Shown here: one piece after another, positions 1,228 to 64,000 of the stretch
Numbering within the stretch: position 1 is the stretch's first letter
Layout of the letters: the number at the start of each line of letters is the position of its first letter
Assembly (NCBI GenBank): GCA_041738135.1
Contig: JBGSQK010000020.1
Coordinates: 18,082 to 82,081 of the forward strand
DNA from: Alphaproteobacteria bacterium
Lineage (GTDB): Bacteria > Pseudomonadota > Alphaproteobacteria > JAGOMX01
Direction of reading: 5' to 3'
Length of the DNA: 64,000 bases
Made by a program: the position numbers and the translations under genes
Notes under the pieces: model-generated
Seen by the model: only the letters and a program-made list of their open reading frames with translations
Told to the model about the DNA's origin: nothing
The model's database searches: none

Positions 1228-1393
1228 CGTCATCCAGAGCGCGCCTCCGCCCCTTGCGGAGGAAGCGAAGGATCCAGCATATATGTGCGAGCTCTTGCGA
1301 GCTCCGTGTTAAATACAATCGAGTTCGCATTCGCTCACACACTTATGCTGGATCCCACGCAGCAACGCTTCGCTTATGCTGCTCTGGATGACG
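1228..1393. repeat. MITE-like palindromic element, family A (CCGTCATCCAGAGCGCGCC...GGCGCGCTCTGGATGACG), copy 1
   Basis: An imperfect palindrome of about 165 bp with long terminal inverted repeats. Related copies lie at 28906, 36286 and 40036. It sits between the convergent Hsp20 gene and a hypothetical gene. Confidence 0.8.
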
Positions 1394-1414
1394 TGATTTA
1401 ATCAAGTTAAGCTG

Positions 1415-9523: not shown

Positions 9524-9655
9524 CCATGTTTAAATATATTACACATTGATTAATTTATAGTTAATTATTTGATGTAATACGCGAATTTTTTGCGATTTTC
9601 CAGACCCCAATATACGTCATGGAGAGTTGTTGTAGTGGAAACAAAATGACAAAAC

Positions 9656-9774
9656 CCCCGTCATTGCGAGCCCTCTTGGGGCGTGGCAATCTACTGAGGT
9701 TTGTCCGCTCGCTAAAGGTTGCTAAAACGAAAAAAGTAGATTGCCACGCCCCAAGAGGGGCTCGCAATGACGGG
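9656..9774. repeat. MITE-like palindromic element, family B (CCCCGTCATTGCGAGCCCCTCTTGGGGCGTGGCAATCTAC...GTAGATTGCCACGCCCCAAGAGGGGCTCGCAATGACGGG), copy 1
   Basis: About 119 bp with roughly 40-bp terminal inverted repeats. Copies lie at 9879, 10365 and 38797. Confidence 0.85.
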
Positions 9775-9878
9775 TGTGGGGTCGTCTTTATTAAAATTTA
9801 CCGCATTTTAGGTGTCGAGTTGCTTCTGTTGCTTCTAATGACGAAGGATTGTTTTAGGGTCACCAAAATGCCCAACCT

Positions 9879-9995
9879 CCGTCATTGCGAGCCCCTCTTG
9901 GGGCGTGGCAAACTACTTTCTTCGCTTCAGACTTATGCAAAACGGCAACACCAAAGTAGATTGCCACGCCCCAAGAGGGGCTCGCAATGACGGGG
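9879..9995. repeat. MITE-like palindromic element, family B, copy 2
   Basis: It has the same termini as copy 1 and sits 105 bp from it. Confidence 0.85.
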
Positions 9996-10004: not shown

Positions 10005-10289
10005 CTATATAATATCCCTATATAAATCACGCCATTGTGGATTCATTTTTTCTATCAGATCAACCTTCTTTTTTCTTGAGCCGCCCTTGATTTGCTTTTC
10101 ACGGGCGATTGCCTCATCCATCGATGCATAAAACTCATAGTAAACTAAATGGGAACAATGATATTGACTGGAAAAACACTTCTTCGTAGGATTTTTGTGT
10201 TGATAAGTTCTGTGAACCAAATAAGCCGTAACCCCAGTATAAACTACTCCATCTTTTCTGCTGGCCATTATGTAAGTTGCTGGTTGCAT
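10005..10289 (-). CDS. GIY-YIG nuclease superfamily small protein (UPF0213/YhbQ-like)
   Basis: The 94-aa ORF reads YIMASRKDGVVYTGVTAYLVHRTYQHK...EFYASMDEAIAREKQIKGGSRKKKVDLIEKMNPQWRDLY, the typical GIY-Y(T)G, conserved R and E arrangement. Confidence 0.75.
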   Translation of the reverse strand: MQPATYIMASRKDGVVYTGVTAYLVHRTYQHKNPTKKCFSSQYHCSHLVYYEFYASMDEAIAREKQIKGGSRKKKVDLIEKMNPQWRDLYRDII

Positions 10290-10364: not shown

Positions 10365-10486
10365 CCCCGCCATTGCGAGCCCCGCTTGGGGCGTGGCAAT
10401 CTATTTTCTTCGCAGCAATTTACTAATCAATAACGGCGGCACCACAGTAGATTGCCGCACCCCAAGAAGGGCTCGCAATGACGGGG
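10365..10486. repeat. MITE-like palindromic element, family B, copy 3 (slightly diverged termini)
   Basis: CCCCCGCCATTGCGAGCCCCGCTTGGGGCGTGGCAATCTA...GTAGATTGCCGCACCCCAAGAAGGGCTCGCAATGACGGGG. Confidence 0.8.
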
Positions 10487-12880: not shown

Positions 12881-14296
12881 CTACAACTTAACCATCAACC
12901 CAGAATAAACAATATTCACAGGCTTAAACCGGTCAGCCGTCCCCTTACGCTTCAGCCTGTAGTTATCATATCGCAAGTAAACTGCCGTACCAGCCGCCTC
13001 AATGTTTTGCACCACACCTGTACCCCAGTTTGTACCAACCATGGTAATGGGCCGACCTGTGCCTGTGCTACCTGGAATGAGCGGTGAGGCATTAGTCCAG
13101 AAATCAATATCCATAGCCCTCCACTGGCCGTAACTGGCAACCCAAGCCGTTTTACCCGCTGCGAAATACTGGTCCAAATAACCAATCTTGCCTTGCAAAG
13201 CACGACCATTGGCTTGATTGGCCATCTTCCACTTACGACTAGCGCCAGAGAAATGAAAGTTAAAACCAGTTCCTTCTTTTCCTGAGAAACTAAACGGCGT
13301 CAACACACCAATAGCGCCCGTAAACGTGTCAAACTTTGGGCCTTTAAATAGGTTTGAGTTACTACTAACCAAAGGGTTGGGATTGCCTAAAACTGCTGCA
13401 TTCTGCATAAAGTTAAAGCCTTGGATATAATCTTGGGTATGATTCCGCGCCCAACTGGTTTGCGCAACGATTGTATACTTAGCCAAAATCGCGGCAAACT
13501 TTAAAGCCACATCAAACAAATCGCCCACATTTTGATAAGAATGGGATGTGCTGAGGTTAAAGCCATAATAGTTAGGGCTGTCGTAACGAATTCGATCATT
13601 CCTACCGTAAATGCTGCCACCATCCCCATGCTCGAAAACCAAAGCACCTGGCTTTAATGTCGCATCTGGACTATTTGGGTTCTCGTTATAAGGCCTGCCG
13701 TTGCGAGCATTTCTAAAGCTAATGCCGCCCATAGATGAATATGGGTGCAAGAAGTAATAGGTACCGGAAAGATCCGTATAATAAACCACACCGGCGGATG
13801 CCATAAGACCCCTACCTAGCGATAGCTTACCGAAGTGTTTGCTGTCTGCGGTTACTTCCGATTCCCGGATAATAATATTCCTCATGGCAAGAGAGTTGGA
13901 CTGAGAACGATGCACATCCACAAACGTGTTACCGCCTGTGTTGCCTGTGGTACCGTTAGAAGCATAATCCATTTGGATTTTCGCACCCATAGTAAAATCA
14001 GGAGCCACGTCCACTGTACCCAACACTTGCACGTTGGAGGTGACGTTGTCTGGTGATACCGTGGATACGTTGGAATGAAATCCATTGTCTGCCCATTGTA
14101 GGGCACGGTTAACCCAGCCCGACAAGGTTATCTTGATAGAATCAGACGTCACCGCATGATCTTCCAGCTTCTTAACCCGCGTTTCCAAGTCAGGCTTACA
14201 AGCCTCATCGGTTTTTTCTTCCGCATGAAGTGTGTTTTGCATCCCCGCCGTCAGAACGAGAGCACTCAGTGTTAGTAAGTTTTTATTTTCAAACAT
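12881..14296 (-). CDS. Outer-membrane beta-barrel (porin-like) protein, paralog 2
   Basis: The 471-aa ORF has a signal peptide. Blocks conserved with paralog 1 include LEDHAV, SGW(A/V)NRA(V/L)QWADNGFHSN, VHRSQS, GDLFDVA, GPKFDT, GQW(T/R)AMD and GTNWG. The C-terminus is ...IVYSGLMVKL. Confidence 0.6.
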   Translation of the reverse strand: MFENKNLLTLSALVLTAGMQNTLHAEEKTDEACKPDLETRVKKLEDHAVTSDSIKITLSGWVNRALQWADNGFHSNVSTVSPDNVTSNVQVLGTVDVAPDFTMGAKIQMDYASNGTTGNTGGNTFVDVHRSQSNSLAMRNIIIRESEVTADSKHFGKLSLGRGLMASAGVVYYTDLSGTYYFLHPYSSMGGISFRNARNGRPYNENPNSPDATLKPGALVFEHGDGGSIYGRNDRIRYDSPNYYGFNLSTSHSYQNVGDLFDVALKFAAILAKYTIVAQTSWARNHTQDYIQGFNFMQNAAVLGNPNPLVSSNSNLFKGPKFDTFTGAIGVLTPFSFSGKEGTGFNFHFSGASRKWKMANQANGRALQGKIGYLDQYFAAGKTAWVASYGQWRAMDIDFWTNASPLIPGSTGTGRPITMVGTNWGTGVVQNIEAAGTAVYLRYDNYRLKRKGTADRFKPVNIVYSGLMVKL

Positions 14297-17263: not shown

Positions 17264-18337
17264 TTAGAGTGATAGACGTTTCTTTATCTCGGCCAACACC
17301 CGCGGGAATTCGTCCAATGCAGGGTAGGACCAAGATTCGAGCTTGTCGCCCATAGGCCTGGTGTAACCGGCTTTTTCGAACAAGCCATGAAACCTGCGGG
17401 AAATGGCGGCGCCACCTGGCAGGTGATACGTATAAACAGGCTTACCGGTAAAGCAGGCTTCAGACGTCATCGAGACTGAATCAGATGTGACCACAATAAA
17501 GTCGGCAAGACCCAAATAGCCAAAATAGGGATTATGGGATTTGGAATCCCATACCACAGCAGGCAAATTTTTAAATGCCTCAACTAGTTCGTCCCGGTTT
17601 TCCAACTCGGTTCGACGAGAAGGAAGGATCGCAATACCTACACCGTACGCCTCGACCCAATGCTGTAACTTCTTTTTTAAATCCTGAACTACCTTAGGTG
17701 TAAGACTGTATCTTTTGTTGGTACCACCAATAAGAACCGTGACCAGTGGCCGCGGCAAATGCGCCAGCGTACCTTTAACTTTTTCTGCCTTTGATTGCAG
17801 GCGCTCTTTGGTCACACGATGCAACGCACCTTCAGTTTGAATAACATTGGGGCCATCATATCGATCATGAATGGGAGCAATCACCAGGTCAAAATGTCGG
17901 GGAGACATCATGGGGCTTTGCAACTGGATGGTTTTGGTTTTGCCTCCTGAAAGTCGGCGAATTTCAGCAACAGGCGCCGCACTTGCTCTACCGGCTGCGA
18001 TCACCACATCGGGCCATGGGGCTTTAAGGAAATCACCATCCTGGTTGACTATACCTTTGATGGAATTAAACCACATCTGAGGAATGAGGTATTTCCAAGG
18101 AAACCTTGCGGAGATCTCATGCACAATAGGTTTCAAACCCAATGCCTCCGCAAGACCAATACATTGATTACCAGTGCCCACCTTACCTGCATCATAAATG
18201 ACCCAACAGCTTGGTTTGGCTTTACGTGACTTGCCCTTCGTATCTTCGCATATCACATCAGGCTCAAGTACTTTTAGAGGATCAAGCCCCACTTTCGTTG
18301 TGCGCACTCCCTGACGTGACTGGCGGGGTGTAATCAT
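17264..18337 (-). CDS. ELM1/DUF1022-family protein (mitochondrial-fission ELM1 homolog, predicted glycosyltransferase-like)
   Basis: CWVIYDAGKVGTGNQCIGLAEALGL matches the N-terminal signature of alphaproteobacterial DUF1022/ELM1 proteins. The annotated start may be about 45 codons too far upstream. Confidence 0.55.
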   Translation of the reverse strand: MITPRQSRQGVRTTKVGLDPLKVLEPDVICEDTKGKSRKAKPSCWVIYDAGKVGTGNQCIGLAEALGLKPIVHEISARFPWKYLIPQMWFNSIKGIVNQDGDFLKAPWPDVVIAAGRASAAPVAEIRRLSGGKTKTIQLQSPMMSPRHFDLVIAPIHDRYDGPNVIQTEGALHRVTKERLQSKAEKVKGTLAHLPRPLVTVLIGGTNKRYSLTPKVVQDLKKKLQHWVEAYGVGIAILPSRRTELENRDELVEAFKNLPAVVWDSKSHNPYFGYLGLADFIVVTSDSVSMTSEACFTGKPVYTYHLPGGAAISRRFHGLFEKAGYTRPMGDKLESWSYPALDEFPRVLAEIKKRLSL

Positions 18338-21817: not shown

Positions 21818-22816
21818 CTATCCCTTAATGACTTTGACATAATCCTTAACTACGAAGAATTCTGCAGGCATCCCGTGCACATCATCGCGCAAATTGCTTC
21901 CGATTTCAGGATAGCCTTCTCCTGTTTCAAAGCTCTGAAACTTCAATGGCCCAACCAACTTCCTAGCCCTTTCTGAGATTCTATCTTCCGTAAAATTGCT
22001 GTCATAAACCAAACTGCAAGGGTTATAGGTATATTCAATTCCATCACGTTTTTCCACAGGGGAGCAGCTGATGCCCCTCAAAAAAGAAAAGTGGTTTTTT
22101 TGGGGACCGATGTCAACTTTGTATGGCCTTGAATTTAGAATAAAACGACTTTCATCTGTACCAGCGTCGATTAGCTCCTGGGTCTCTTTACGGGTGACCT
22201 CAGAGAGGGCAAAAACACTACAGCTGGCTAAATTAACACCCGGAAGGTAAATAGCGCCCTCTGGCTTAAGGAGTCTAACAATACGAATCATCCTAATTGT
22301 ATCCCATTCAGCAAATTTAAGCACAGACCAATCAAAATAGATCTTGCTTACAGGGCCATTAAATTTAACTTTGCCTGTATCTTGAGGAAGGAGCAGCGCT
22401 ATCAAATGATTCCAATCATCCATCTTGTTAAAGTCAGCATAAAAAATAGGGGAACGTTCATTGGCTGATCTAAAATCGACCCTTTCATCATTGGTGAAAA
22501 ATATTCGGACGGGTGCTTTAAAGGGGTACTGACCTACGCCATTCTCACGCGCTTCCCTTTCCCTGTCTTGATCGATCAATCTTTTCATATGGTTTTCATA
22601 AGGACCGGCACCAAGGACGATATGTAACTCTCGCCCTTCTTGTAGGGCAAACTGAGGTGCCCGCTCCAAGTAAACCTTGAGGTTTCTGTCCGCATTAAAC
22701 TGCTTGCTCAGCTCTACACTCCGAGCACTTTCTTGCTCATTATAAAAAGCTGTAGCGGAGGCAGCACTATTAAAGCCTAGGGCTAATAAGGAAATCGCAA
22801 AAATTTTCTTCAACAT
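21818..22816 (-). CDS. Hypothetical secreted protein with weak Rossmann/methyltransferase-like motifs
   Basis: The 332-aa ORF has a signal peptide (MLKKIFAISLLALGFNSAASA). Possible motif I-like (HIVLGAGPYE) and motif III-like (LLKPEGAIY) segments are seen. There is no confident family assignment. Confidence 0.45.
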   Translation of the reverse strand: MLKKIFAISLLALGFNSAASATAFYNEQESARSVELSKQFNADRNLKVYLERAPQFALQEGRELHIVLGAGPYENHMKRLIDQDREREARENGVGQYPFKAPVRIFFTNDERVDFRSANERSPIFYADFNKMDDWNHLIALLLPQDTGKVKFNGPVSKIYFDWSVLKFAEWDTIRMIRIVRLLKPEGAIYLPGVNLASCSVFALSEVTRKETQELIDAGTDESRFILNSRPYKVDIGPQKNHFSFLRGISCSPVEKRDGIEYTYNPCSLVYDSNFTEDRISERARKLVGPLKFQSFETGEGYPEIGSNLRDDVHGMPAEFFVVKDYVKVIKG

Positions 22817-24362: not shown

Positions 24363-25415
24363 ATGAACACAAATTTTACCTTATTTCTTCCAAAACAGAT
24401 GCCTAGCGAATGGCAGGAAATTCCCAAGTCACAATCATATCGAGAAGAACTGCCGCCATATAACATGCAAGACCCATCCACGCGAACCGCCTGGTCCAAT
24501 TGGAGTGGGATTCATAACTCCAGTTACAAAACGGATTTTATGCATCGATCAGGATCCATCATCCGCTGTAAACAGTATCTATACGATTTAGGCCCCTTGT
24601 CGGCGAGCGACCATGCGGCGCTTTATGACCATTTTCATTGGAGATTAGGCCACCGCATATCTGGTGATCGTATTTATTGGCATGGATACGATTACGCCGT
24701 AAAACCTGCCTTGACGTTTCAGGATTCGGGCACCAACATTGAACTACGGGTGGTTCAAGGCGAAGTGTCGACCGAGGAGCTCATTACATTAGCCGAGCAT
24801 CTGCAGCCGGAAAATGATCTGCTAAATAACACGCCTTTTGCTGAAAAAAGTTACTGGTCTCGTTATCCACGCTACGATCTAAATCTCTATATACCAGATT
24901 CCCAATACAAAATCCCTTCCAGCCTATGGAAACTCCGCTGGCCCTTATGGCAAGCAGAGCATCGTTGGGAATTGTTTGAAAAAGACTTGGTTTCAGACGT
25001 GATGAATCGCATATTGCAGGAACTAAGACAATTTGGATTTGAGTCCGACAGCATATGCACCTTTGGTGAACAGCTGGAAGTTCAACTATTTCTTAAGCAC
25101 AAACAGCATCCAAATATCCATGGCTGGCTCCGTCGCTTGAACTCAAAATCAAGCCCTCTCAAACAACCCAGGCCCGATCGCTTGCCTGAAATGGATTCCT
25201 TTAGTGGATTTACAGGATTCGGGATCAACGTACTGGAGTCATCCAAATTCGAGACACCCATTTACATAGCAAGCGTGAGCAAAGAAATTGGCCCGTTTGA
25301 CATCATTTGGTGGGACAAAGGTCATATGTATCTTGTTCAGATAGTAGCTTCAACGGAATTTGATTTGAAAAAAGTTCTTCTGCTGGCTGAAAGGATAGAA
25401 GGCAATCTTGAGTAA
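24363..25415 (+). CDS. Hypothetical protein (350 aa), no recognisable motif
   Basis: A long ORF in an accessory-looking cluster, Trp/His-rich, with no signal peptide. Confidence 0.45.
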   Translation: MNTNFTLFLPKQMPSEWQEIPKSQSYREELPPYNMQDPSTRTAWSNWSGIHNSSYKTDFMHRSGSIIRCKQYLYDLGPLSASDHAALYDHFHWRLGHRISGDRIYWHGYDYAVKPALTFQDSGTNIELRVVQGEVSTEELITLAEHLQPENDLLNNTPFAEKSYWSRYPRYDLNLYIPDSQYKIPSSLWKLRWPLWQAEHRWELFEKDLVSDVMNRILQELRQFGFESDSICTFGEQLEVQLFLKHKQHPNIHGWLRRLNSKSSPLKQPRPDRLPEMDSFSGFTGFGINVLESSKFETPIYIASVSKEIGPFDIIWWDKGHMYLVQIVASTEFDLKKVLLLAERIEGNLE

Positions 25416-25629: not shown

Positions 25630-26556
25630 TCAATTATCTAATCTAAGCGTCGTTCTCAACGCACCCATTATCTCATCCTGGCTGTCATACCTAGGTATGG
25701 TAATGTAGTCAACACCCCATAGGCAGTCTAAAACCGTCTTGATAATTGGACGCTTTGTGCCCATGATTTCTTTTATAGTCAATGCTTTGAGAGCTGGGTC
25801 ATGAGGCTTTTCAAGCAAGTCCAAGACCGCAACCAGTTCTCTGGCAGGCGTATGATTTGCTCTTTTTGCAGCATGTAACTGATTGTATGCCATTAAAGGA
25901 TTTACCACATCCACACCCAAAAATCTGAATGTATTGAGATACTCAACCCGGGCCATTGGATTTCTAATTTTATCAGTACACTTGAAAAAGTCAGCAACGT
26001 CTCCTTCTGCAAAATATGAGTCAAAAGCCGCTGCAAAGTCCAAAGCATGTGGTTGCAAAAGACTCATTTCTATACCGCCATAAAATTTGCCATGTAGCCA
26101 AGTACCGGCGCAATCCAAAGCAAATTGAGCTGCCCCTTCCTCTAGCTGTTTTGCATGATATAACATGTTCGGGAAATCAAATGATTCACCAAATGACATC
26201 AACATTTCTGTATAGAGCCATTGCAATGATTCTCCGGAAGTTTCGGCATTGTACGCAAGCTTCCTTAAAGCAAATAATGATCCTTCTCTAGCTTGGTATA
26301 TAAGATCATTTCTTTCCTCTAATTGTCTTTTACTTTCTTCTAATTGCTCTTCTCGTTGTCTCAAAAATGATTCGAATGATTCAATTGCGGCTTTTCCATC
26401 TGCTAAAAAATATTTAGCTACTGCACTATGGATGGGAGCAGTAAATTTAATTTTTACACTATCTGGTTGTTCAATATCACTTGCCATACATGTGCTGGAA
26501 AATGCTACGGATGAGACTAAAGCTAGAATTGTCAGTGACTTGCGTTTAAATTGCAT
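25630..26556 (-). CDS. Hypothetical secreted protein (308 aa)
   Basis: It has a signal peptide (MQFKRKSLTILALVSSVAFSSTCMA) and a charged coiled-coil segment (REEQLEESKRQLEERNDL). No family is recognised. Confidence 0.45.
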   Translation of the reverse strand: MQFKRKSLTILALVSSVAFSSTCMASDIEQPDSVKIKFTAPIHSAVAKYFLADGKAAIESFESFLRQREEQLEESKRQLEERNDLIYQAREGSLFALRKLAYNAETSGESLQWLYTEMLMSFGESFDFPNMLYHAKQLEEGAAQFALDCAGTWLHGKFYGGIEMSLLQPHALDFAAAFDSYFAEGDVADFFKCTDKIRNPMARVEYLNTFRFLGVDVVNPLMAYNQLHAAKRANHTPARELVAVLDLLEKPHDPALKALTIKEIMGTKRPIIKTVLDCLWGVDYITIPRYDSQDEIMGALRTTLRLDN

Positions 26557-28905: not shown

Positions 28906-29070
28906 CCCCGTCATCCAGAGCGCGCCTCGGCAAAGCCGAGGAAGCGTGGGATCCAGAATATGAGCGTCGCGCAGCGACTCATTATAGCTATACGGAGCCG
29001 CTATCGCGGCACTCATTATCTGGATCCCACGCTTCCTCGGCTTTGCCGAGGCGCGCTCTGGATGACGGGG
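28906..29070. repeat. MITE-like palindromic element, family A (subtype 2), copy 2
   Basis: CCCCGTCATCCAGAGCGCGCCTCGGCAAAGCCGAGGAAGCGTGGGATCCAG...CTGGATCCCACGCTTCCTCGGCTTTGCCGAGGCGCGCTCTGGATGACGGGG, nearly identical to the copy at 40036. Confidence 0.85.
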
Positions 29071-31610: not shown

Positions 31611-32600
31611 TCAATTTTCAAGTATAATTGTTTTACCCTCTTCATAGGTAATTTCGATAGCATCTTGTTCGATGATCCTACTCATATATTTGAGTAATTT
31701 AGCCGCCTTGTCGGATTTTCTTGTTTTACCTATTTTAAGTTCGAAATTTGAAGGATATTCATAATCCGCAAAACCATCAGGTAAAGAAATGTCTGAAATT
31801 AGGATTGTTAAATGAGGATACTTAGTAGCAAATCTTGCAGCAAGACCAACTAGTAGCACATTGTTACAATCTGGCCCCGGAGTTAGATCAATTTTACAAT
31901 CTGATACGTTCCGCGATACCATGACACCTAAAAGATCGACAACTTGCTGTGCATTTAGATTGTGCCCTTTACAAAGTAGAATGTTGAGATTTTTAAAACT
32001 GTCGACATTTAAATTTAAGTAATTGATTAAACCAGGCAACACAATTGGGTTGCATCCAGAAAAATTCATACCCTTCACATCAAATTCCTTATTAATATAG
32101 GTAAGGGCCGTCTCACATGTTTCTTCTGAGTCAACAAGTTGTAAAATGTCTCCTGGCTTTAACATAGAGTTTTTTCCCAAGTAATCCAGGAACTTGTTCG
32201 TTTTCACGGCTTCATGGCTATCCGTATCCAGACTGATGTTTAAAGGCGCTCGCAAAAATTGTTTTGGCGGAGTCACTCCTGTATCTTGCGTACTTTCATC
32301 CCTGTCAGGTGCGGCACCAATATATACTTGATCAGGTGTCTGCGCAGGATCAGATAAGTCTGGCCACCAAGTTAGTTGAAATCCAGCCACCTCATCTGCA
32401 ACACTGCTAAACGCAGATGAAATTCTTTCTTGAAAATAGCTGAAGAAAGGCAGCGTAGCGCAATCTGGATTAAGTTCGCGAAGATCAATAACCGGCCCCA
32501 TATTTCTCGGCGGCGCCATGTAATGGTTGAATTCTTGGTCTGACGCCCATAAGGGCGAGCTGTTTAACATGAGCATGATTGTATATACGAGTCTTTTCAT
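31611..32600 (-). CDS. Hypothetical secreted protein (329 aa), Leu/Asn-rich
   Basis: It has a signal peptide (MKRLVYTIMLMLNSSPLWA). A segment looks leucine-rich-repeat-like (LNLNVDSFKNLNILLCKGHNLNAQ). Confidence 0.45.
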   Translation of the reverse strand: MKRLVYTIMLMLNSSPLWASDQEFNHYMAPPRNMGPVIDLRELNPDCATLPFFSYFQERISSAFSSVADEVAGFQLTWWPDLSDPAQTPDQVYIGAAPDRDESTQDTGVTPPKQFLRAPLNISLDTDSHEAVKTNKFLDYLGKNSMLKPGDILQLVDSEETCETALTYINKEFDVKGMNFSGCNPIVLPGLINYLNLNVDSFKNLNILLCKGHNLNAQQVVDLLGVMVSRNVSDCKIDLTPGPDCNNVLLVGLAARFATKYPHLTILISDISLPDGFADYEYPSNFELKIGKTRKSDKAAKLLKYMSRIIEQDAIEITYEEGKTIILEN

Positions 32601-36265: not shown

Positions 36266-36285
36266 ACGTAAGAAGCCCCGTCATC

Positions 36286-36443
36286 CAGAGCGCGCCTCCG
36301 CATAGCGGAGGAAGCGAAGGATCCAGCGTATGTGCGCGAGCGAATGCGAGCTCCGTATTAAAGTATGATCGAGTTCGCATACGCTCACACTTTTATGCTG
36401 GATCCCACGCAGCAACGCTACGCTTATGCTGCTCTGGATGACG
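36286..36443. repeat. MITE-like palindromic element, family A (subtype 1), copy 3
   Basis: CCCCGTCATCCAGAGCGCGCCTCCGCATAGCGGAGGAAGCGAAGGATCCAGC...GCTGGATCCCACGCAGCAACGCTACGCTTATGCTGCTCTGGATGACG, closest to the copy at 1228. Confidence 0.85.
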
Positions 36444-36465
36444 AGGCTTTACTGGGGTGATTACT

Positions 36466-38796: not shown

Positions 38797-38916
38797 CCCG
38801 TCATTGCGAGCCCCTCTTGGGGCGCGGCAATCTACTGTGACGTAACCGTTTAACATCAGTCTGCGGTAGAGAAGAAAGTAGATTGCCACGCCCCAAGAGG
38901 GGCTCGCAATGACGGG
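38797..38916. repeat. MITE-like palindromic element, family B, copy 4
   Basis: CCCGTCATTGCGAGCCCCTCTTGGGGCGCGGCAATCTACTG...AGTAGATTGCCACGCCCCAAGAGGGGCTCGCAATGACGGG. Confidence 0.85.
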
Positions 38917-39098: not shown

Positions 39099-40004
39099 AT
39101 GGCTAAACCAGTATTTATACCCAATGACATAAACTGGGAACTACTCAAACGCTTTAATGTGTGCGCGAATAGCTTTGGTTTTAATGAAGCTGCAAAAAAA
39201 ATAGGCACCAGCCCGTCAGCTCTACTCGGTCAGATTGAAGTACTTGAAAAGCAGATAGGCTTTAACTTATTTGAACGGGTAAACAGAAATAGGTCCAAAA
39301 CCTTAACACCCGAAGGCCAGATGCTGAAGGAAGCAACTCAACAGATATTTCTGTTTTTAAGCACCCCCATGAATGAGCAGAAAAAATTAAGCAAATCTCA
39401 AGCTCGCATTTTAAGGGTGATAACCACAGAAGGGCTGGCCAAAACAATTCTGGTTAAACCCATTAACCAATATTTAGAAGATCACCCTGATATTCAATTA
39501 CAACTGATCACCAAATCCACAGCAGATTTAATCGAGCCTGGCGAGGTGGTGATTCGTTCAAATTTTGTGGAGCAAAAGCACGTACGAAGGGAATATCTGC
39601 TCAATTACAAAATGAAATTGTATGCAAGCAAAACCTACATTAATAAATTCGGCAGGCCTGCATCTCCACTGGATCTTTCAAATCACAAGGTACTCATATT
39701 CAACAGTTTGGGCGCAAAGGATTCATCATTTCTCTGGAAGCCTGACCTCAATATTTACCTTACTCCCACGGTAGTATCCGATTCCTTCGATTTTCTTTTG
39801 AAGCAATGCTACGAAGGACAAGGTATTTTTGAGTTAGCAGACCTATATCTGGAAAAAGATGAATTGGTAGACTTGTTTCCCGATATGTCCGGGGAACAGT
39901 TTGATCTTTATCTGTCCTATAACAAGAAAAGTACTTACGAAGATCTTATTCCTGATTTCGTTAAATTTCTTAAGAAATCCATCGGCGATAAAGCCAAGGA
40001 ATAA
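39099..40004 (+). CDS. LysR-family transcriptional regulator
   Basis: An N-terminal wHTH (FNEAAKKIGTSPSALLGQIEVLEKQIGFNLFER) is followed by a roughly 200-aa substrate-binding domain. Confidence 0.75.
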   Translation: MAKPVFIPNDINWELLKRFNVCANSFGFNEAAKKIGTSPSALLGQIEVLEKQIGFNLFERVNRNRSKTLTPEGQMLKEATQQIFLFLSTPMNEQKKLSKSQARILRVITTEGLAKTILVKPINQYLEDHPDIQLQLITKSTADLIEPGEVVIRSNFVEQKHVRREYLLNYKMKLYASKTYINKFGRPASPLDLSNHKVLIFNSLGAKDSSFLWKPDLNIYLTPTVVSDSFDFLLKQCYEGQGIFELADLYLEKDELVDLFPDMSGEQFDLYLSYNKKSTYEDLIPDFVKFLKKSIGDKAKE

Positions 40005-40035: not shown

Positions 40036-40200
40036 CCGTCATCCAGAGCGCAGCTCCGCGTATGCGGAGTAAGCGTGGGATCCAGCAAATAAGTGTTGCG
40101 CAGCAACTCTCTATAGCTATATAGAAGCCGCTTACGCGGCACTCATTCGCTGGATCCCACGCTTCCTCGGCCTTGCCGAGGCGCGCTCTGGATGACGGGG
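40036..40200. repeat. MITE-like palindromic element, family A (subtype 2), copy 4
   Basis: CCGTCATCCAGAGCGCAGCTCCGCGTATGCGGAGTAAGCGTGGGATCCAGC...GCTGGATCCCACGCTTCCTCGGCCTTGCCGAGGCGCGCTCTGGATGACGGGG. Confidence 0.85.
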
Positions 40201-40211: not shown

Positions 40212-40808
40212 TCACGAAATCCTAAGGATACTCTCCGAAGATCGCCTACGATGTATAAAAGCCTCATAAGTTTGAGCATTCATAGGCACTATACCGAGTA
40301 CATAGGGCCGACTATCGTTAAAAGGAGAAGCAATCTGGGCCTGTTTCTCAAAAGGCCACAACCCCATGTTTAAAATATCCTTATGCCCTTCAGTCGGCAG
40401 AACTGTAATAAATGCTTTAATTTTCTGAGCAATACTAATGGTCTTTAAAGAATCATACATATTCTGATAAAAATCCTGGCGAATCAGGTTAAACATTTTT
40501 TCTGATTCTTCTTTTGCAGTCTCACCAGGCAGATGAAAAAAAATACGACTCATTTCCCAGATTTTTTGATTGGACTTAAATTGCAAACGCTTCAGCAAAT
40601 CTGAGGTCAATACAGGCTGATCAATAGGAATCAAACGGGCCCCACCAATAACACCAAACTTCTTATGACTGTAAATAAGATAATGCGTTTGATCATGATC
40701 AAATTCATCACGCGCCGACTTTCCATGCTCTAGCTCAATCAACGAAAACATTTGCTTCATTTCCTTACTATACTCGGCCCTTTTCTTAGGGGGAATCAGG
40801 TTAAACAT
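40212..40808 (-). CDS. LuxI-fold acyltransferase (acyl-homoserine-lactone synthase-like; autoinducer synthase family)
   Basis: Collinear matches to LuxI catalytic blocks are DEFDHDQTHYLIYSHKKFGVIGGARLIP (compare LuxI ..DEYD....YIY......VSGCWRLLP) and KIWEMSRIFF (compare ..VELSRFAV). The N-terminal R/W block is only partly conserved. The start is taken at MFNLIPP. Confidence 0.5.
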   Translation of the reverse strand: MFNLIPPKKRAEYSKEMKQMFSLIELEHGKSARDEFDHDQTHYLIYSHKKFGVIGGARLIPIDQPVLTSDLLKRLQFKSNQKIWEMSRIFFHLPGETAKEESEKMFNLIRQDFYQNMYDSLKTISIAQKIKAFITVLPTEGHKDILNMGLWPFEKQAQIASPFNDSRPYVLGIVPMNAQTYEAFIHRRRSSESILRIS

Positions 40809-40996
40809 TACATTAACTCCTAAATAATTATTACCATCTCTTGACACATAGGGTCTTTTTTCAAGATTTCAATAGCTTTGAATAAAAAGAAGTGGGGAAC
40901 TAATGACCTTCATGCAAAGTTATTGGTTAATCTGCACCCTATAAAGCCTAGTCCACCTAAGTATGTAAGTATTTAGTTGCAAAAGTGGTGAAAGGT

Positions 40997-41179
40997 TCAT
41001 TCATGCAGTTCTTGAGTGAGGGCGTTCAAAAAACTCTTCACCACTTTTGCTACTAAATACTCACTTATTCTTAGCTCTGCACAAAGCTTGTCTATCAGTT
41101 TGTATAAGGAATATTTATTTTGAAAATCCAATAAAAAGACCATATTTGTTTTTTTCCAAACTTTTTTGCTCTCAGTCAC
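40997..41179 (-). pseudogene. Truncated HU/IHF-family gene fragment (N-terminal helices only)
   Basis: NKYSLYKLIDKLCAELRISEYLVAKVVKSFLNALTQEL matches the HU/IHF N-terminal helix-turn-helix. A stop follows where the beta-arm (GFGxF) should begin, and the truncation point coincides with an inverted duplication of the same coding segment. Confidence 0.35.
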
Positions 41180-41272
41180 TCATCTTCAGATCCTTCTCCC
41201 ACAAGGCTTTCAAGACAAGATATTATTTATTTAATTTTTTTTGACACTATATGAAAATAATTATAATTTTTT

Positions 41273-41301
41273 CTTGACAAATCATACTTTTATAGCTATA
41301 T
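41273..41301 (+). promoter_or_regulatory. Sigma-70-like promoter (TTGACA-17-TATATT)
   Basis: A near-consensus -35 (41273-41278) and -10 (41296-41301) with 17-bp spacing lie in an AT-rich region. A second TTGACA is at 41241. Confidence 0.45.
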
Positions 41302-41304
41302 TAT

Positions 41305-41630
41305 GCTTAAGGGTAAGAGATGGAACTCTTCCCCTCGTGTACACAAAAACGAAAGGCATCCGGCGTTTGGGCCCCCGCGTAACCCAAACAAGTCTGGAAA
41401 TGAGCGGCGCGGTGAGCAAGTAAGGGATATGGTATGTAAAGTGCCATATCTACCGTACGGTTAATGCAAAAAGGTGACGAGGAAGGTATCCCTATAAGCC
41501 AAAAACAACCTAAAAAATCCAAACGGTGGAAGCCGGATGATGACTGAGACGACATTCAGAGATCAAAAGGCTTCCACCACCTTATAAAGGAAGATCGGGC
41601 AAAGTAGCCCAATCAAGTGAGTAAAGGAGT
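41305..41630 (+). ncRNA. Candidate structured ncRNA or long 5' leader (unassigned family)
   Basis: This is a roughly 330-nt ORF-poor transcript region downstream of the promoter, with several stable hairpins. Examples are GGTGGAAGCC-N34-GGCTTCCACC at 41525-41578 and GATATGG-N11-CCATATC. It ends at the SD (AAGGAG) of a 77-codon ORF. Confidence 0.3.
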
Positions 41631-41634: not shown

Positions 41635-41868
41635 ATGATACTAGATGATAAACGTTATAAGATAGAGAAAGTTATTAATAGATTTGAGCGGATTTCTCGA
41701 AGATCTGAATTGAAACAAGATTACGCCTCGTCAATTAAGGCGGGGAAAGTAGCCTTGGACTATTTTGTTGATCAAAAAAAAGAAACGCCTGAAGAAGAAA
41801 CCATATGGGACAAAGATAAGTTGATCAGTCTACTGGATTACCTCGAGAAACAGCTCGAACAACCGTAA
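41635..41868 (+). CDS. Hypothetical small protein (77 aa)
   Basis: It has an ATG with a consensus SD (AAAGGAG) 7 nt upstream. The product is charged/helical with no recognised family. Confidence 0.45.
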   Translation: MILDDKRYKIEKVINRFERISRRSELKQDYASSIKAGKVALDYFVDQKKETPEEETIWDKDKLISLLDYLEKQLEQP

Positions 41869-42033: not shown

Positions 42034-42110
42034 GCGTCCTTAGCTCAGTTGGATAGAGCACCGGCCTTCTAAGCCGGGTGTCGCAGGTTCGAATCCTGCA
42101 GGACGCGCCA
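42034..42110 (+). tRNA. tRNA-Arg (anticodon TCT), CCA encoded
   Basis: GCGTCCTTAGCTCAGTTGGATAGAGCACCGGCCTTCTAAGCCGGGTGTCGCAGGTTCGAATCCTGCAGGACGCGCCA has anticodon loop CTTCTAA. Confidence 0.9.
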
Positions 42111-49599: not shown

Positions 49600-52542
49600 T
49601 TAGACCGGGTCATGTACGATGACTTGGACAATTGCTTCAACTTGAACAATTGCTCCATTGTCGTGGCTTATGTAAGTATGATAATCGCCGGCTTGAGATC
49701 CTGCAGGGGGTGGTGCTGCAGCATCATTTAATTCCCAGTTTCCAGTACTCAAATTGACAATGTCGCTAGAATCGCCATGGAATATGATCGTATTATTGGT
49801 TGCTCCAATATTCAGTACATCAGATGCAGTGATAGAAACTGTATTTGCCAAGCCGTTGCTCATATCAATAGTTTCTATATTATTAATATTGGAAAATGTG
49901 ATCAGGCCGCTATCGTTCATCTGCAGGGTATCCATACCAGAGCCACCATCTATCAAAACATCCGTTGCATCGTAAACTATAGTGTCACTTCCTGAACCTG
50001 CACGAATAGTGTCGGCACCTGCCCCCCCATCAATGAAGTCATTGCCGCCGAGGCCATTGTCCGCACCTCCTGCATCACCATATATGGTGTCGTTTCCTGC
50101 ACCACCATAAATGGTATCATTGCCGCCATGTGCAGAACCTGCTAGATTTCCAGCCGTATCGCCATATATAGTGTCATTACCTGCATCACCATAAATAGTA
50201 TCGTTTCCTCCTTGAGAATTACCAGACATATTGCCTGCGGCATCGCCATAGATGATATCAGCTCCAGATCCGCCATGTATGTTGTCGTTGCCACCAACAG
50301 TGTTGTCAGCCATCGTGCCACCAGCATCTCCATAAATATTATCAGCAGCTGCACCACCATAAATCGTATCGTGACCGCCCAAAGCCGAACTGGACAAATT
50401 ACCACCCACATCACCGTATAGATTATTACCGGCTTTACCTCCAGCTCCGTCACCACCATGGATAATATCTGACCCCATTGTACCATTTGATATATTTCCA
50501 GAGGCGTCGCCATATACTATATCTGTGCCGGCTAAAGTATAAAAAGCTTGGTTTGTCGTGTTTCCTGTCATTGTATCGTTGCCGGATGTGCCAGTAGCTA
50601 CATCAAGGGTCTGCATGTTAAAGGTGTTCGAGACTTTTGCTCCCGAAGAATCGGTTGCAGTGACAGTTATATTAGCAGAGCTTGAATCTGAATATCCCGG
50701 CATTCCTGAAATAACACCTGTTTGAGAATCAATGGTGGCCCATGATGGTGCCCCGCTCATGGTATAAGTGAGAGAAGCACCCGCATCAACATCTGAGAAA
50801 AATGAAGAGACGTTATAGTTTACAGCCTGACCTTCTTCGCCAACAAATGCGGCAATCTGAGATACCGTTGGCGCGTCATTGGTATTGTTAACTGTGAGCT
50901 GGAAAGTATCTTGTACGGTTGAACCATGTGAGTCAGTAGCGACTACGGTGATGTTGGCAACTCCCACGTCGCCGTTGGCAGGCGTACCTGAAATGACGCC
51001 TGTGTTGGCATCAATGGTAACCCAAGCTGGAGTAACATTGGCCAAAGAATAGGTCAACGAATCGCCCACGTCTACATCCGCAAATTGCCCTGAGACATTG
51101 TAGTTCAATGCTGCATCTTCATTTACGGAAGTATCAGCAATGGGCGTGACCGTTGGGGCGTCATTGGTATTGTTCACTGTGATCTGGAAGGTATCTGTCA
51201 CAGTTGAGCCATGTGAGTCTGTGGCGATTATTGTTATGTTGGCAGATCCCACATCGCCGTTGCCTGGAGTTCCTGTAATCACGCCTGTGTTAGCATCAAT
51301 GGTGACCCAAGCTGGAGCACCATTAGCCAGGGAAAAGGTTAAATGATCGCCCGCGTCTATATCCGTAAAGTGTCCTGCCACATTGTAATGCAATGCTGCA
51401 TCCTCATTTATGGAAGTGTCGTTTATAGGGATTGCCGTCGGGGCATGCTCTACAGCATTTACGCCTATACTTAGGGAGCTCGAAATGCTTTGTCCTTGGC
51501 TATCTGTAGCTATTATAGTTAAATGCAAAATCCCTATATCACCGTGCCCCGGAGAACCAGTAAGAACACCGGTGGTTGCGTTCATACTTACCCAGGATGG
51601 CAGTGGGCTGCCGTCTTGAAGGATAGCGCTAAAGGTCAGATGATCACCTGTGTCTATATCACTAAAATAGCTATTTAAGTTCACGTTCAGGCCAGCTCCC
51701 TCATTAACGAATGTATCTGAGATAGCGATTACGGTTGGTGTATGGTTAGTATTAACTGGTGTGTCAATGAGCGTTTCTAAGTTTAACTGTGATTGTGAAG
51801 GGATTGCTACTTTTGTGGCAGTGATATGAAGACTAGAAATCCCCGATGGTTCACTGAAGGTGAATGTTGGTGTAATTGTTGTTTGGGCAACATCAAGCGA
51901 TTCATCATCCGTTTCAGTTAATAAGGCAGGATCTCCTGTTGTATGGTATTTACTTAGTACGGCGTTAAAGTCTTGTGATGTTTGCGTAGCAGCAGAATCC
52001 TGATTGCCCTCTGCATCAGCTGGATCCGTATGCGCATGGTTGGTTTCTTCAGATTGATTGTCATCACCTTCTTGGGTCTTTGCTTGTTCCGTATTACTCC
52101 TTATATCTGAAAATGCTAGCAAAGAAAGATTACTTACTGTTAGCTGAGAAATTGTGCTGTCCGCATTTATGACTGGATTGAGATTGTTTGCAGGGCCATT
52201 ACCCATATCTCGCAAATTGCCATTTGAAGAATTGAAATTAAAACGAGCAATATCTAAAATGTGGCTTTGAATATGAGTCGTACTTAATAGCATAATAGCG
52301 GCAAGGGCAGAGTCAGCTGAAATGGAGACATTGTTTTCATTTATAGCTATTGAGATTAGATCGGAAGAATTGTTTTGTGTGATCAGGTTTGAGTTATGTT
52401 CTTTTGAAGAATGATTATTTAATGTTGAACCATCATAGCTCATTGAGGTATTTAAAGAGACTATGGCAAATGACGAACTATTTCCATTATTATTTTGTTG
52501 CTTGCTCATAAATCTACCTGACTCAAGTTTCCTCGACTTCAT
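49600..52542 (-). CDS. Large exoprotein: Ser/Asn-rich N-terminus, four cadherin-like/Ig-like ~100-aa repeats, C-terminal RTX (GGxGxD) calcium-binding repeats
   Basis: Four tandem domains follow the pattern (D/H)APTV.PI.DT.VNEDAAL.YNV.G.F.D.D.GD.LT.SLAN..P.WVTIDANTGVI.GTP.NGDVG.ANIT..ATDSHGSTV. Then come at least 12 nonapeptide repeats (GGNDTIYGDAGNDTIYGD...). This architecture is typical of type-I-secreted adhesins. Confidence 0.75.
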   Translation of the reverse strand: MKSRKLESGRFMSKQQNNNGNSSSFAIVSLNTSMSYDGSTLNNHSSKEHNSNLITQNNSSDLISIAINENNVSISADSALAAIMLLSTTHIQSHILDIARFNFNSSNGNLRDMGNGPANNLNPVINADSTISQLTVSNLSLLAFSDIRSNTEQAKTQEGDDNQSEETNHAHTDPADAEGNQDSAATQTSQDFNAVLSKYHTTGDPALLTETDDESLDVAQTTITPTFTFSEPSGISSLHITATKVAIPSQSQLNLETLIDTPVNTNHTPTVIAISDTFVNEGAGLNVNLNSYFSDIDTGDHLTFSAILQDGSPLPSWVSMNATTGVLTGSPGHGDIGILHLTIIATDSQGQSISSSLSIGVNAVEHAPTAIPINDTSINEDAALHYNVAGHFTDIDAGDHLTFSLANGAPAWVTIDANTGVITGTPGNGDVGSANITIIATDSHGSTVTDTFQITVNNTNDAPTVTPIADTSVNEDAALNYNVSGQFADVDVGDSLTYSLANVTPAWVTIDANTGVISGTPANGDVGVANITVVATDSHGSTVQDTFQLTVNNTNDAPTVSQIAAFVGEEGQAVNYNVSSFFSDVDAGASLTYTMSGAPSWATIDSQTGVISGMPGYSDSSSANITVTATDSSGAKVSNTFNMQTLDVATGTSGNDTMTGNTTNQAFYTLAGTDIVYGDASGNISNGTMGSDIIHGGDGAGGKAGNNLYGDVGGNLSSSALGGHDTIYGGAAADNIYGDAGGTMADNTVGGNDNIHGGSGADIIYGDAAGNMSGNSQGGNDTIYGDAGNDTIYGDTAGNLAGSAHGGNDTIYGGAGNDTIYGDAGGADNGLGGNDFIDGGAGADTIRAGSGSDTIVYDATDVLIDGGSGMDTLQMNDSGLITFSNINNIETIDMSNGLANTVSITASDVLNIGATNNTIIFHGDSSDIVNLSTGNWELNDAAAPPPAGSQAGDYHTYISHDNGAIVQVEAIVQVIVHDPV

Positions 52543-63673: not shown

Positions 63674-64000
63674 TTAAATATAGGGCTTTGAAACATAAGG
63701 CATCAATTCCCCGGCTTTCAATTTGGTTAAGTCTTTAGCGACCTCATGGGCCACCTTAGACAATACATTGTGACTCAAGTATTTACGTAATTCACCCAGA
63801 GTTTGCGGCGGAGCGACCAGCACAAGGCTGTCCATATCTGATAGACCATTATTCAAGTGGTTCGAAATTTTTCTAACAAAGTGTTCCTTCTCGTTTCGAT
63901 GGACGTCTGTGTGAGGAGCAAAAGAATGTGTGCCCGACATGACTTTTTTAATTCTACCAGGTTTTGCTGCACCCATGTCAAAATTATCTTTGGTTCCTCG
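63674..64000 (-). CDS. Hypothetical protein, C-terminal part (possibly host-attachment-protein-like family); the gene continues beyond the window end
   Basis: The ORF is open to the window edge. Its C-terminus is ...LVLVAPPQTLGELRKYLSHNVLSKVAHEVAKDLTKL. The family call is weak. Confidence 0.35.
   Translation of the reverse strand, partial: RGTKDNFDMGAAKPGRIKKVMSGTHSFAPHTDVHRNEKEHFVRKISNHLNNGLSDMDSLVLVAPPQTLGELRKYLSHNVLSKVAHEVAKDLTKLKAGELMPYVSKPYI

What the first reader, a model, noticed from the sequence alone, without database searches (positions are those of the whole stretch)
40212..40808. LuxI-fold (AHL-synthase-like) gene with no LuxR partner, next to a LysR regulator
The product conserves the LuxI-family acidic/catalytic blocks (DEFD...Y.IY...G..RL(I/L)P; E.SR(F/I)) but diverges in the N-terminal Arg/Trp block that contacts the acyl-ACP. 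No LuxR-type gene is in the window. The neighbour is a convergent LysR-type regulator, separated by a family A MITE. This could be an unpaired acyl-HSL synthase, or a LuxI-fold N-acyl-amino-acid synthase of unknown product. Either would be unexpected if the organism is host-restricted.
Basis: partly seen in the sequence, partly recalled or inferred. Interest (0 to 1): 0.65.

Follow-up and report, generated by a model that had tools for sequence, protein, structure and literature searches.

The report
Divergent LuxI-type synthase lacking SAM pocket
This gene encodes a working enzyme with the fold and catalytic residues of bacterial acyl-homoserine-lactone (quorum-signal) synthases, but the short segment those enzymes use to hold S-adenosylmethionine is missing, so it probably makes a related but still unknown N-acyl compound.

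Summary

The six core LuxI residues are present and invariant in all 20 clade members: D34, D37, R58, E85, S87 and R88, equivalent to LasI D44, D47, R70, E101, S103 and R104. The N-terminal R23/F27/W33 block is gone: LasI K28-I38, which includes W33, is an 11-residue deletion here.

The protein scores below the Pfam and NCBIfam thresholds for AHL synthases. It does not match FeeM or the PEP-CTERM acyltransferase models. It belongs to a small monophyletic clade known only from uncultured Alphaproteobacteria and is under strong purifying selection (dN/dS 0.035).

No LuxR gene is present in the window or in any related locus. A convergent LysR gene accompanies it in 5 of 6 lineages, including one with different flanking genes, but is absent in one. 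The 163-bp MITE between the two genes is real and recent.

Verdict: a new variant of a known kind. The product is unresolved.

The parts
40212..40808 (-). luxI-like gene, 198 aa. It encodes a LuxI-superfamily acyltransferase with the core residues D34, D37, R58, E85, S87 and R88, and it lacks the W33-bearing SAM-pocket segment.
40817..40821 (-). Shine-Dalgarno AGGAG, 8 nt upstream of the ATG at 40808.
   Evidence: Read directly from the sequence. The family N-terminus MFNLI supports this start.
40036..40198 (.). 163-bp palindromic MITE (terminal inverted repeat CCGTCATCCAGAGCGC) inserted between the two convergent stop codons.
   Evidence: Inverted repeats I2 and I4. Four copies in the window at 1227-1394, 28908-29068, 36278-36444 and 40036-40198, against 0.31 expected by chance. 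Absent at the orthologous site in L017, whose spacer is 82 bp.
39099..40004 (+). Convergent LysR-type transcriptional regulator, 301 aa (GcvA/YafC-like). It is a conserved neighbour in most lineages of the clade.
   Evidence: Pfam HTH_1 4e-11 and LysR_substrate 3e-14. NCBIfam best hits are YafC and GcvA, both far below cutoff. Orthologues lie next to the luxI-like gene in L017, L001, L004, L016 and L010. dN/dS 0.037.
40809..41534 (.). Upstream non-coding spacer, unusually conserved with the closest relative. It presumably holds the promoter and regulatory region of the luxI-like gene and possibly a divergent small RNA (41303 to about 41580).
   Evidence: 65-97% identity per 60 nt to L017. 41240-41534 is 91.6% identical, although dS of the neighbouring genes is about 0.7. 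Promoter-like site at 41274-41302 on the + strand. No Rfam match.

Best explanation
The gene encodes a functional enzyme of the LuxI (AHL-synthase) branch of the GNAT superfamily. It belongs to a small, previously undescribed clade found so far only in uncultured Alphaproteobacteria.

Shown here:
- It has the LuxI/FeeM-type fold.
- It keeps every residue of the LuxI catalytic and electrostatic core: D34, D37, R58, E85 (aligned with LasI E101, the proposed catalytic glutamate), and S87-R88 on the beta4 strand, which in LuxI enzymes holds the acyl-phosphopantetheine.
- It is under strong purifying selection.

Inferred:
- It takes an acyl group from an acyl-thioester (acyl-ACP or acyl-CoA) and transfers it to the amino group of a small amino-acid-like acceptor, giving an N-acyl amide.
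- The 11-residue segment that carries W33 (and R30) of the canonical SAM pocket is deleted, and R23 and F27 are replaced. The acceptor is therefore either not S-adenosylmethionine or is bound in a non-canonical way. The product is more likely a non-AHL N-acyl compound than a standard acyl-homoserine lactone.
- No LuxR receptor accompanies it. If the product is a signal, the convergent LysR-type regulator that travels with the gene in most lineages is the best available candidate for the sensor or regulator. That link is only circumstantial.
For: Homology to LuxI:
- hhalign of the clade against 28 canonical LuxI proteins: 99.7%, E 6e-27, 178 columns.
- The clade profile finds about 28 canonical LuxI representatives at E 3e-9 to 1e-3 in 1.84 billion proteins.
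- 17/20 clade members hit PF00765, best E 3e-6.
- 15/20 hit only AHL-synthase TraI models in NCBIfam.

Fold:
- AF2 model pLDDT 85.9.
- Foldseek top 12 hits are all AHL synthases, E about 1e-9.

Core residues: invariant 20/20.

Missing SAM-pocket segment:
- 11-residue gap opposite LasI K28-I38; R23 aligns with I24 and F27 with H28.
- W33 is invariant in 28/28 canonical proteins.
- No Trp occurs before residue 84 in any clade member.
- The role of R23/F27/R30/W33 in SAM binding comes from PMC4655403 and PMC4246208.

Functional gene: dN 0.026, dS 0.73 against the 95%-identical orthologue.

Separate clade: clade 21/21 and canonical 19/19 are each monophyletic in an NJ tree.

No LuxR.

LysR partner: retained in 5 of 6 lineages, including L010, where both flanks differ.
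Against: - All of the closest sequence and structure relatives with known function are true AHL synthases. The strict retention of D34/D37/R58/R88 would fit continued use of SAM.
- No ligand was modelled, so the statement that the SAM pocket is lost rests on alignment plus the AF2 secondary structure (helix 14-32 runs straight into D34), not on a pocket analysis.
- The LysR gene is convergent, whereas LTTRs are usually divergent from their targets (general knowledge). It is missing in lineage L008/L015 and in the more distant relatives P0018, P0021 and P0022.
- A LuxR gene could lie elsewhere in the genome.
Confidence: 0.55

Rival explanations
1. It is a genuine acyl-homoserine-lactone synthase, a 'LuxI solo'. 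It still uses SAM, with the adenosine held by other residues. The signal is read by a LuxR encoded elsewhere in the genome, by other bacteria, or by a host.
For: All top sequence and fold matches are AHL synthases. All six core LuxI residues are invariant. JGI annotates two clade members as N-acyl-L-homoserine lactone synthetase. LuxI solos are documented, for example in Sphingomonadaceae and Ruegeria (PMC4288048, PMC7154725).
Against: W33 is invariant in 28/28 canonical proteins and is assigned with F27, R23 and R30 to the SAM pocket (PMC4655403, PMC4246208). It lies in a segment that is deleted here. The protein scores below the Pfam gathering threshold (17.9 vs 24) and far below the NCBIfam AHL-synthase cutoffs (18.7 vs 292). 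No LuxR lies within 6-10 kb on either side in any of about 10 independent loci.
Confidence: 0.3
2. It is an acyltransferase with no signalling role, for example one making a membrane aminolipid or modifying or detoxifying a metabolite. Its position next to the LysR gene is inherited synteny rather than a functional link.
For: There is a sub-threshold match to PF13444 Acetyltransf_5 (18.8 vs 22.4 bits; 8/20 members). By my recollection that family includes lipid N-acyltransferases. The neighbourhood is a conserved housekeeping block (Dps, ZnuA, NAD kinase, photolyase, arginase, aminotransferase). LysR is dispensable in L008/L015. The gene pair is convergent.
Against: Autoind_synth and TraI models are hit more often and better than PF13444. 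The LuxI-specific residue set is fully conserved in this clade, whereas the wider non-canonical family has largely lost it: R88 in 10/92 and D34 in 31/92. LysR stays with the gene in L010 although both flanks changed.
Confidence: 0.12
3. It is a decaying or non-functional remnant of a former quorum-sensing locus in a genome littered with MITEs.
For: MITEs flank the gene. LuxR is absent. The N-terminal segment is lost.
Against: The ORF is intact with a good SD. dN/dS is 0.035. There are 39 invariant columns across 20 proteins down to 46% identity, and the same 198-aa length in 16 of the 19 retrieved homologues. The deletion is shared by the whole clade, so it is ancient and tolerated.
Confidence: 0.03

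Closest known systems
LuxI-family acyl-homoserine-lactone synthases (Pfam PF00765; LasI 1RO5, TofI 3P2F/3P2H, EsaI 1KZF, BjaI 5W8x, RpaI 6WN0, MesI 6WNS)
   Same: Same fold, with full-length homology (hhalign 99.7%). Same size (198 vs about 200 aa). Same conserved D-x-x-D, G-x-x-R-L-x-P and W-E-x-S-R blocks, with all six core residues retained.
   Different: Only 14-20% identity. Below the family thresholds. An 11-residue deletion removes the W33/R30 segment, and R23 and F27 are replaced. The clade has its own invariant residues (K8, K9, H38, H48, K49, K50, D112, F113, H142, W151-P152-F153). The basic ACP-docking position LasI R154 aligns with a variable non-basic residue (PMC4234381). There is no adjacent LuxR. 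The clade is a separate monophyletic group.
FeeM-type N-acyl amino acid synthases (PDB 2G0B; Pfam PF21926)
   Different: 7-10% identity. PF21926 is not hit by the window protein at E up to 1 and is not among the families matched by any of the 20 clade members at E up to 0.1. This clade keeps the LuxI D/D/R/E/S/R set.
PEP-CTERM/exosortase-associated acyltransferases (NasY-type, NCBIfam TIGR03694)
   Same: Same broad superfamily. One distant member of the wider non-canonical family (alignment A2) hits TIGR03694 at 5.6e-14.
   Different: No clade member hits TIGR03694. No exosortase or PEP-CTERM genes are listed in any neighbourhood.
LuxI solos (for example in Sphingomonadaceae, or SscI of Ruegeria)
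   Same: A LuxI-type gene without an adjacent luxR (PMC4288048, PMC7154725).
   Different: By my understanding of the cited reports, the described solos are canonical PF00765 members that make AHLs. This protein is non-canonical and is usually paired with a LysR gene.

Membership tests
LuxI-type AHL synthase (PF00765, EC 2.3.1.184) | Scores at or above the curated family thresholds (Pfam gathering score; NCBIfam AHL-synthase models) | tested here: not met
   PF00765 17.9 bits against a cutoff of 24. NF010408 18.7 against 292. NF052393 17.5 against 250. 17/20 clade members give sub-threshold or weak PF00765 hits, best E 3.2e-06.
LuxI-type AHL synthase (PF00765, EC 2.3.1.184) | LuxI-type alpha/beta GNAT-like fold, closest to solved AHL synthases | tested here: met
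LuxI-type AHL synthase (PF00765, EC 2.3.1.184) | Conserved core residues (LasI numbering D44, D47, R70, E101, S103, R104) | tested here: met
   They align with D34, D37, R58, E85, S87 and R88. All are invariant in 20/20 clade members.
LuxI-type AHL synthase (PF00765, EC 2.3.1.184) | N-terminal SAM-pocket residues (LasI R23, F27, R30, W33) | tested here: not met
   R23 aligns with I24 and F27 with H28. K28-I38, including R30 and W33, has no counterpart. W33 is invariant in 28/28 canonical sequences. The HMMER alignment to TofI places W33 on the variable residue S22. The role of these residues is taken from PMC4655403 and PMC4246208.
LuxI-type AHL synthase (PF00765, EC 2.3.1.184) | Basic ACP-docking helix (LasI 146-173, conserved basic residue at R154) | tested here: inconclusive
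   LasI R154 aligns with the variable M148. Only K155 (aligned with LasI R161) is conserved. CoA-dependent LuxI enzymes also lack these basic residues (PMC4234381), so this does not decide membership.
LuxI-type AHL synthase (PF00765, EC 2.3.1.184) | Produces an acyl-homoserine lactone from SAM and an acyl-thioester | not testable with these tools
   Needs expression, biosensors, LC-MS, or an in-vitro MTA/DCPIP assay.
LuxI/LuxR quorum-sensing pair | Cognate LuxR-type receptor (Autoind_bind plus GerE) encoded nearby | tested here: not met
   None is in the window, nor within 6-10 kb on either side in related loci. The rest of the genome was not available.
FeeM N-acyl amino acid synthase (PF21926) | Match to the family model | tested here: not met
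PEP-CTERM/exosortase-associated acyltransferase (TIGR03694) | Match to TIGR03694 and linkage to exosortase/PEP-CTERM genes | tested here: not met
   There is no hit in 20/20 clade members. No such neighbours are listed in any gene table.
Acetyltransf_5 (PF13444) | Score at or above the gathering threshold | tested here: not met
   18.8 bits against a cutoff of 22.4, covering only residues 27-90. 8/20 members match at E 0.0015 or weaker.
LysR-type transcriptional regulator (neighbour gene) | N-terminal HTH_1 plus C-terminal LysR substrate-binding domain | tested here: met
   PF00126 4e-11 and PF03466 3.2e-14, both above their cutoffs.
MITE (element 40036-40198) | Short, non-coding, terminal inverted repeats, multiple copies, presence/absence polymorphism | tested here: met
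   163 bp with 24-nt and 37-nt inverted arms. Four copies in the window against 0.31 expected. Absent at the orthologous site in L017. A target-site duplication could not be determined because the L017 spacer is not alignable.

The most novel reading that the evidence does not exclude
This clade is a LuxI-derived synthase that has abandoned SAM. It makes a new class of N-acyl signal (not an AHL), which is sensed by the co-inherited LysR-type regulator rather than by a LuxR. That would be a LuxI/LysR signalling pair in uncultured, possibly protist-associated, Alphaproteobacteria.
Probability: 0.15. Interest if true: 0.8.

Novelty: new variant of a known kind. Interest (0 to 1): 0.5.

Why it matters
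LuxI enzymes are the standard synthases of Gram-negative quorum signals, and their conserved residues are used to annotate 'AHL synthases' in genomes and metagenomes. This clade keeps the catalytic core but has lost the tryptophan-bearing SAM-pocket segment. It has no LuxR partner and usually sits next to a LysR regulator.

If it still makes AHLs, it shows that the canonical SAM pocket is dispensable. If it makes something else, it is an evolutionary intermediate between AHL synthases and N-acyl-amino-acid synthases, and a possible source of a new signal or lipid in uncultured Alphaproteobacteria.

In practice, it is a case where automatic labels such as 'N-acyl-L-homoserine lactone synthetase' (given by JGI to two members) may be wrong.

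Tried and rejected
- **GTDB genome scan:** returned only two MAGs, labelled no more precisely than 'Alphaproteobacteria'. The organism and its lifestyle could not be pinned down. I considered Holosporales but have no evidence for it, and a literature search linking Holosporales or Paracaedibacter to AHL/LuxI found nothing relevant.
- **Metagenome scan:** added only one redundant locus.
- **Remnants of relatives' upstream neighbours** (YajC, SecDF, SodB, a DUF2608-like protein) in the 1.2-kb spacer: none found.
- **Arginase pseudogene:** I suspected one because my ATG-only ORF list had a gap at 33.9-34.8 kb. tblastn shows an intact arginase there.
- **The 60-aa ORF at 40997-41179:** tested as a truncated HU gene. 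The similarity is weak (Pfam E 0.17) and the real HU gene is at 2463-2729. I treat it as not a gene.
- **Rfam hits in the spacer:** only sub-threshold miRNA-like hairpin matches to a palindrome at 40959-41070, rejected as meaningless.
- **LysR as an OxyR-type regulator of the adjacent dps:** considered but not favoured. The best NCBIfam matches are YafC, GcvA and DsdC, and in L010 LysR stays with the luxI-like gene, not with dps.
- **Promoter scan for the luxI-like gene:** no convincing site on the minus strand.

Full report
**1. The observation**

The finding's coordinates are exact. A 597-nt ORF runs on the minus strand from the ATG at 40808 to the TGA at 40212 and encodes 198 aa. The ORF listing extends it to a GTG at 40847. 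Homologues begin with MFNLI at the ATG, and an AGGAG lies 8 nt upstream at 40817-40821, so 40808 is the start.

The quoted motifs are all present: D34-E-F-D37, Y43-L-I-Y46, G55-G-A-R58-L-I-P61 and E85-M-S87-R88-I89.

**2. Is it LuxI-like beyond chance?**

The single sequence is weak against the family libraries:
- Pfam Autoind_synth 17.9 bits (cutoff 24).
- Acetyltransf_5 18.8 bits (cutoff 22.4).
- NCBIfam AHL-synthase TraI models E about 1e-3, against cutoffs of 250-292 bits.
- Best PDB sequence hit TofI (3P2F), E 4e-4, covering residues 22-96 only.

The family context makes the homology clear. A search of 5.8 billion proteins found only 19 homologues at 46-95% identity, 16 of them exactly 198 aa and nearly all from metagenomes. 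Their alignment (A1) has 39 invariant columns.

A profile of A1, run against 1.84 billion representatives, gave 121 hits at E below 1e-3:
- About 92 are short, non-canonical relatives, mostly without any Pfam match.
- About 28 are canonical LuxI proteins, recognised by phmmer with LasI and EsaI. Both reproduce the published residue numbering.

Profile-profile comparison of A1 with 28 canonical LuxI sequences (A3) gives probability 99.7%, E 6e-27, 178 aligned columns, end to end.

An AlphaFold2 model built on A1 is confident (pLDDT 85.9, pTM 0.83).
- Foldseek against the PDB: ranks 1-12 are all AHL synthases (RpaI, MesI, TofI, BjaI, LasI, EsaI; E about 1e-9). Generic GNATs and FeeM follow at 1e-6 to 1e-5.

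The protein therefore lies inside the LuxI/FeeM-type branch of the GNAT superfamily and nearest to the AHL synthases.

**3. Residue-level test**

In the hhalign alignment, LasI residues map to this protein as follows:

| LasI residue | This protein |
|---|---|
| D44 | D34 |
| D47 | D37 |
| R70 | R58 |
| E101 | E85 |
| S103 | S87 |
| R104 | R88 |

All six are invariant in the 20-member clade and nearly so in the canonical set (25-28 of 28).

- Both families start with a beta1 strand (MFNLI versus MIVQI).
- LasI R23 aligns with I24 and F27 with H28.
- LasI K28-I38 (KERKGWDVSVI, containing R30 and W33) faces an 11-residue gap.
- In the model, helix 14-32 runs straight into D34.
- W33 is invariant in all 28 canonical sequences. 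No clade member has a Trp before residue 84.
- The alternative ungapped HMMER alignment to TofI puts W33 on the variable S22. The triad is absent under either alignment.

Papers citing the LasI structure state that R23, F27 and W33 (and R30) form the SAM-binding pocket (PMC4655403, PMC4246208). The ACP-docking helix is LasI 146-173 (PMC4234381). The diverged block is therefore the SAM pocket, not the acyl-ACP contact.

In the ACP-helix region, LasI R154 is the basic position conserved in ACP-using clades (PMC4234381). It aligns with the variable M148, and only K155 (aligned with LasI R161) is conserved. This is a weak hint against classical ACP docking. CoA-dependent LuxI enzymes also lack these basic residues, so the point is inconclusive.

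**4. Is the gene functional?**

The closest relative is L017, a JGI metagenome contig (protein 95% identical). Against it:
- luxI-like gene: dN 0.026, dS 0.73, ratio 0.035.
- Neighbouring LysR gene: ratio 0.037.

The ten amino-acid differences avoid every invariant position. The gene is not a relic.

**5. Where the clade sits**

In a simple NJ tree of 126 sequences, the clade (21/21) and the canonical LuxI set (19/19) are each monophyletic. The clade's nearest neighbours are the non-canonical short proteins.

That wider group has largely lost the LuxI core: D34 in 31/92, R58 in 41/92, E85 in 51/92 and R88 in 10/92. It shares other motifs with the clade, such as F113 and G149-x-W151-P-F153.

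The clade therefore combines the intact LuxI catalytic core with the shortened N-terminus of the non-canonical group. None of its members hits FeeM (PF21926) or the PEP-CTERM acyltransferase model TIGR03694.

**6. Neighbourhood**

No LuxR gene is present in the window:
- Pfam scans of all unannotated and small ORFs found no Autoind_bind or GerE domain.
- The remaining ORFs are recognisable housekeeping genes.

None of the gene tables of related loci lists PF03472 or PF00196 within 6-10 kb on either side. The rest of the genome is unknown.

The convergent neighbour at 39099-40004 is a LysR-type regulator, with HTH_1 and LysR_substrate domains and GcvA/YafC-like best hits.

Across six clade lineages the pattern is:
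- LysR present beside the luxI-like gene: window/L017, L001 group, L004 group, L016, and L010/L011.
- In L010/L011 both flanks are different (MerR upstream; LppC and RsmI downstream). Apart from the window and L017, whose upstream flank also differs (point 3 of section 9), the other lineages carry YajC-SecDF or SodB on one side and Dps-ZnuA-NadK on the other.
- LysR absent: L008/L015 (63% identity), where the luxI-like gene abuts dps directly.
- LysR also absent next to the distant relatives P0018, P0021 and P0022.

The LysR orthologues are 41-96% identical to the window's LysR. The association is thus frequent and survives one rearrangement, but it is not obligatory. The convergent orientation is not the usual LTTR-target arrangement (general knowledge). 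I treat a LuxI-like/LysR functional pair as possible, not shown.

**7. The MITE**

The 207-bp spacer between the two stop codons contains a 163-bp palindromic element at 40036-40198 with nested inverted repeats. Its terminal sequence CCGTCATCCAGAGCGC marks four elements in the window, against 0.31 matches expected by chance.

In L017 the spacer is only 82 bp and lacks the element. In L004 the two genes are 3 bp apart. The insertion is therefore recent and incidental to the gene pair.

**8. Mechanism**

Shown: LuxI-type fold, intact catalytic core, purifying selection, loss of the W33 segment, and no LuxR nearby.

Inferred: the enzyme transfers an acyl group from an acyl-thioester to an amino group. 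The retention of the D/D/R/E/S/R set in this clade, while the wider family lost it, suggests an amino-acid-like acceptor positioned as in LuxI enzymes. The deletion of the adenine-side pocket argues that the acceptor is not SAM, or is SAM bound differently.

My estimates:
- About 0.55 for a non-canonical N-acyl product.
- 0.30 for a true AHL synthase solo.
- 0.12 for a non-signalling acyltransferase with LysR adjacency being mere synteny.
- 0.03 for a relic.

**9. Other things seen**

1. The spacer upstream of the gene is far more conserved with L017 than the synonymous sites of the flanking genes.
   - Window 41240-41534 is 91.6% identical, with 1-nt indels, so it is not coding.
   - The block starts at an 11/12 sigma70-like promoter on the + strand (41274-41302).
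   - It ends at a conserved stem (41525-41578) whose loop differs by 18 nt. On the minus strand that stem is followed by a T-run.
   - Folding z-scores are -3.6 and -3.8.
   - Rfam finds nothing.
   - It may be a small RNA, or the regulatory region of the luxI-like gene.
2. A second MITE family (CCCGTCATTGCGAGCC, about 118 bp) has four copies, one of them between dps and the LysR gene. L017 carries a copy of that family at a different site.
3. A tRNA-Arg(TCT) gene at 42034-42110 marks the point where synteny with relatives ends.

**10. Verdict**

Membership in the NasY and FeeM families was tested and not met.

This is a new variant of a known kind, of moderate interest (0.5). Its main value is as a testable candidate for a LuxI-derived enzyme that no longer uses the canonical SAM pocket.

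Noticed in passing
window 41240-41590: This non-coding block is 91.6% identical to the closest relative (L017), although dS of the flanking genes is about 0.7. It has 1-nt indels, starts at a near-consensus promoter (TTGACA-17-TATATT, 41274-41302, + strand), and ends at a conserved stem (41525-41578) with a variable loop that looks terminator-like on the minus strand. MFE z is about -3.7 on both strands and there is no Rfam match. It may be a small RNA or the regulatory leader of the luxI-like gene.
   Followed up: partly
window 9657-9774, 9878-9994, 10366-10485, 38797-38916: A second MITE family (about 118 bp, terminal repeat CCCGTCATTGCGAGCC) has four copies. Three are clustered around a small GIY-YIG gene (10005-10289), and one lies between dps and the LysR gene. 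That last copy is absent at the same site in L017, which carries a copy of the family elsewhere (L017 1704-1859). The 123-aa 'ORF' at 9619-9990 is made of these repeats.
   Followed up: partly
window 1227-1394, 28908-29068, 36278-36444: Three further copies of the 163-168-bp MITE family found between the luxI-like and LysR genes. All are intergenic.
   Followed up: partly
window 40959-41070: A third palindrome (36-nt arms, 34-nt loop) lies in the spacer upstream of the luxI-like gene and overlaps the end of a doubtful 60-aa ORF (40997-41179). It gives only sub-threshold miRNA-hairpin Rfam matches.
   Followed up: partly
window 41635-41868 (+) and 42034-42110 (+): A 77-aa ORF with a strong AGGAG Shine-Dalgarno and no family match is followed by tRNA-Arg(TCT). 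This is where synteny with relatives breaks: they have YajC-SecDF or SodB/DUF2608-like genes upstream of the luxI-like gene.
   Followed up: partly
window 10583-12361 and 12881-14296 (-): Two paralogous signal-peptide proteins of 592 and 471 aa have similar N- and C-terminal halves and an outer-membrane, porin-like look. They were not scanned against family libraries.
   Followed up: no
window 49600-52542 (-): A 980-aa protein has tandem roughly 100-aa cadherin-like repeats followed by Gly/Asp-rich RTX-like nonapeptide repeats. It is a probable secreted adhesin or toxin-like protein.
   Followed up: no
window 17264-18337 (-) and 63674-63976 (-): An ELM1 'mitochondrial fission' family protein (PF06258, E 7e-95) and a 'host attachment' protein (PF10116, E 2e-24).
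   Followed up: no
window 1415-2155, 21818-22816, 24363-25415, 25630-26556, 31611-32600: Five ORFs of 246-350 aa have no Pfam match at E up to 0.01. 31611-32600 has weakly similar counterparts at the same syntenic position in relatives (31-35% identity).
   Followed up: partly
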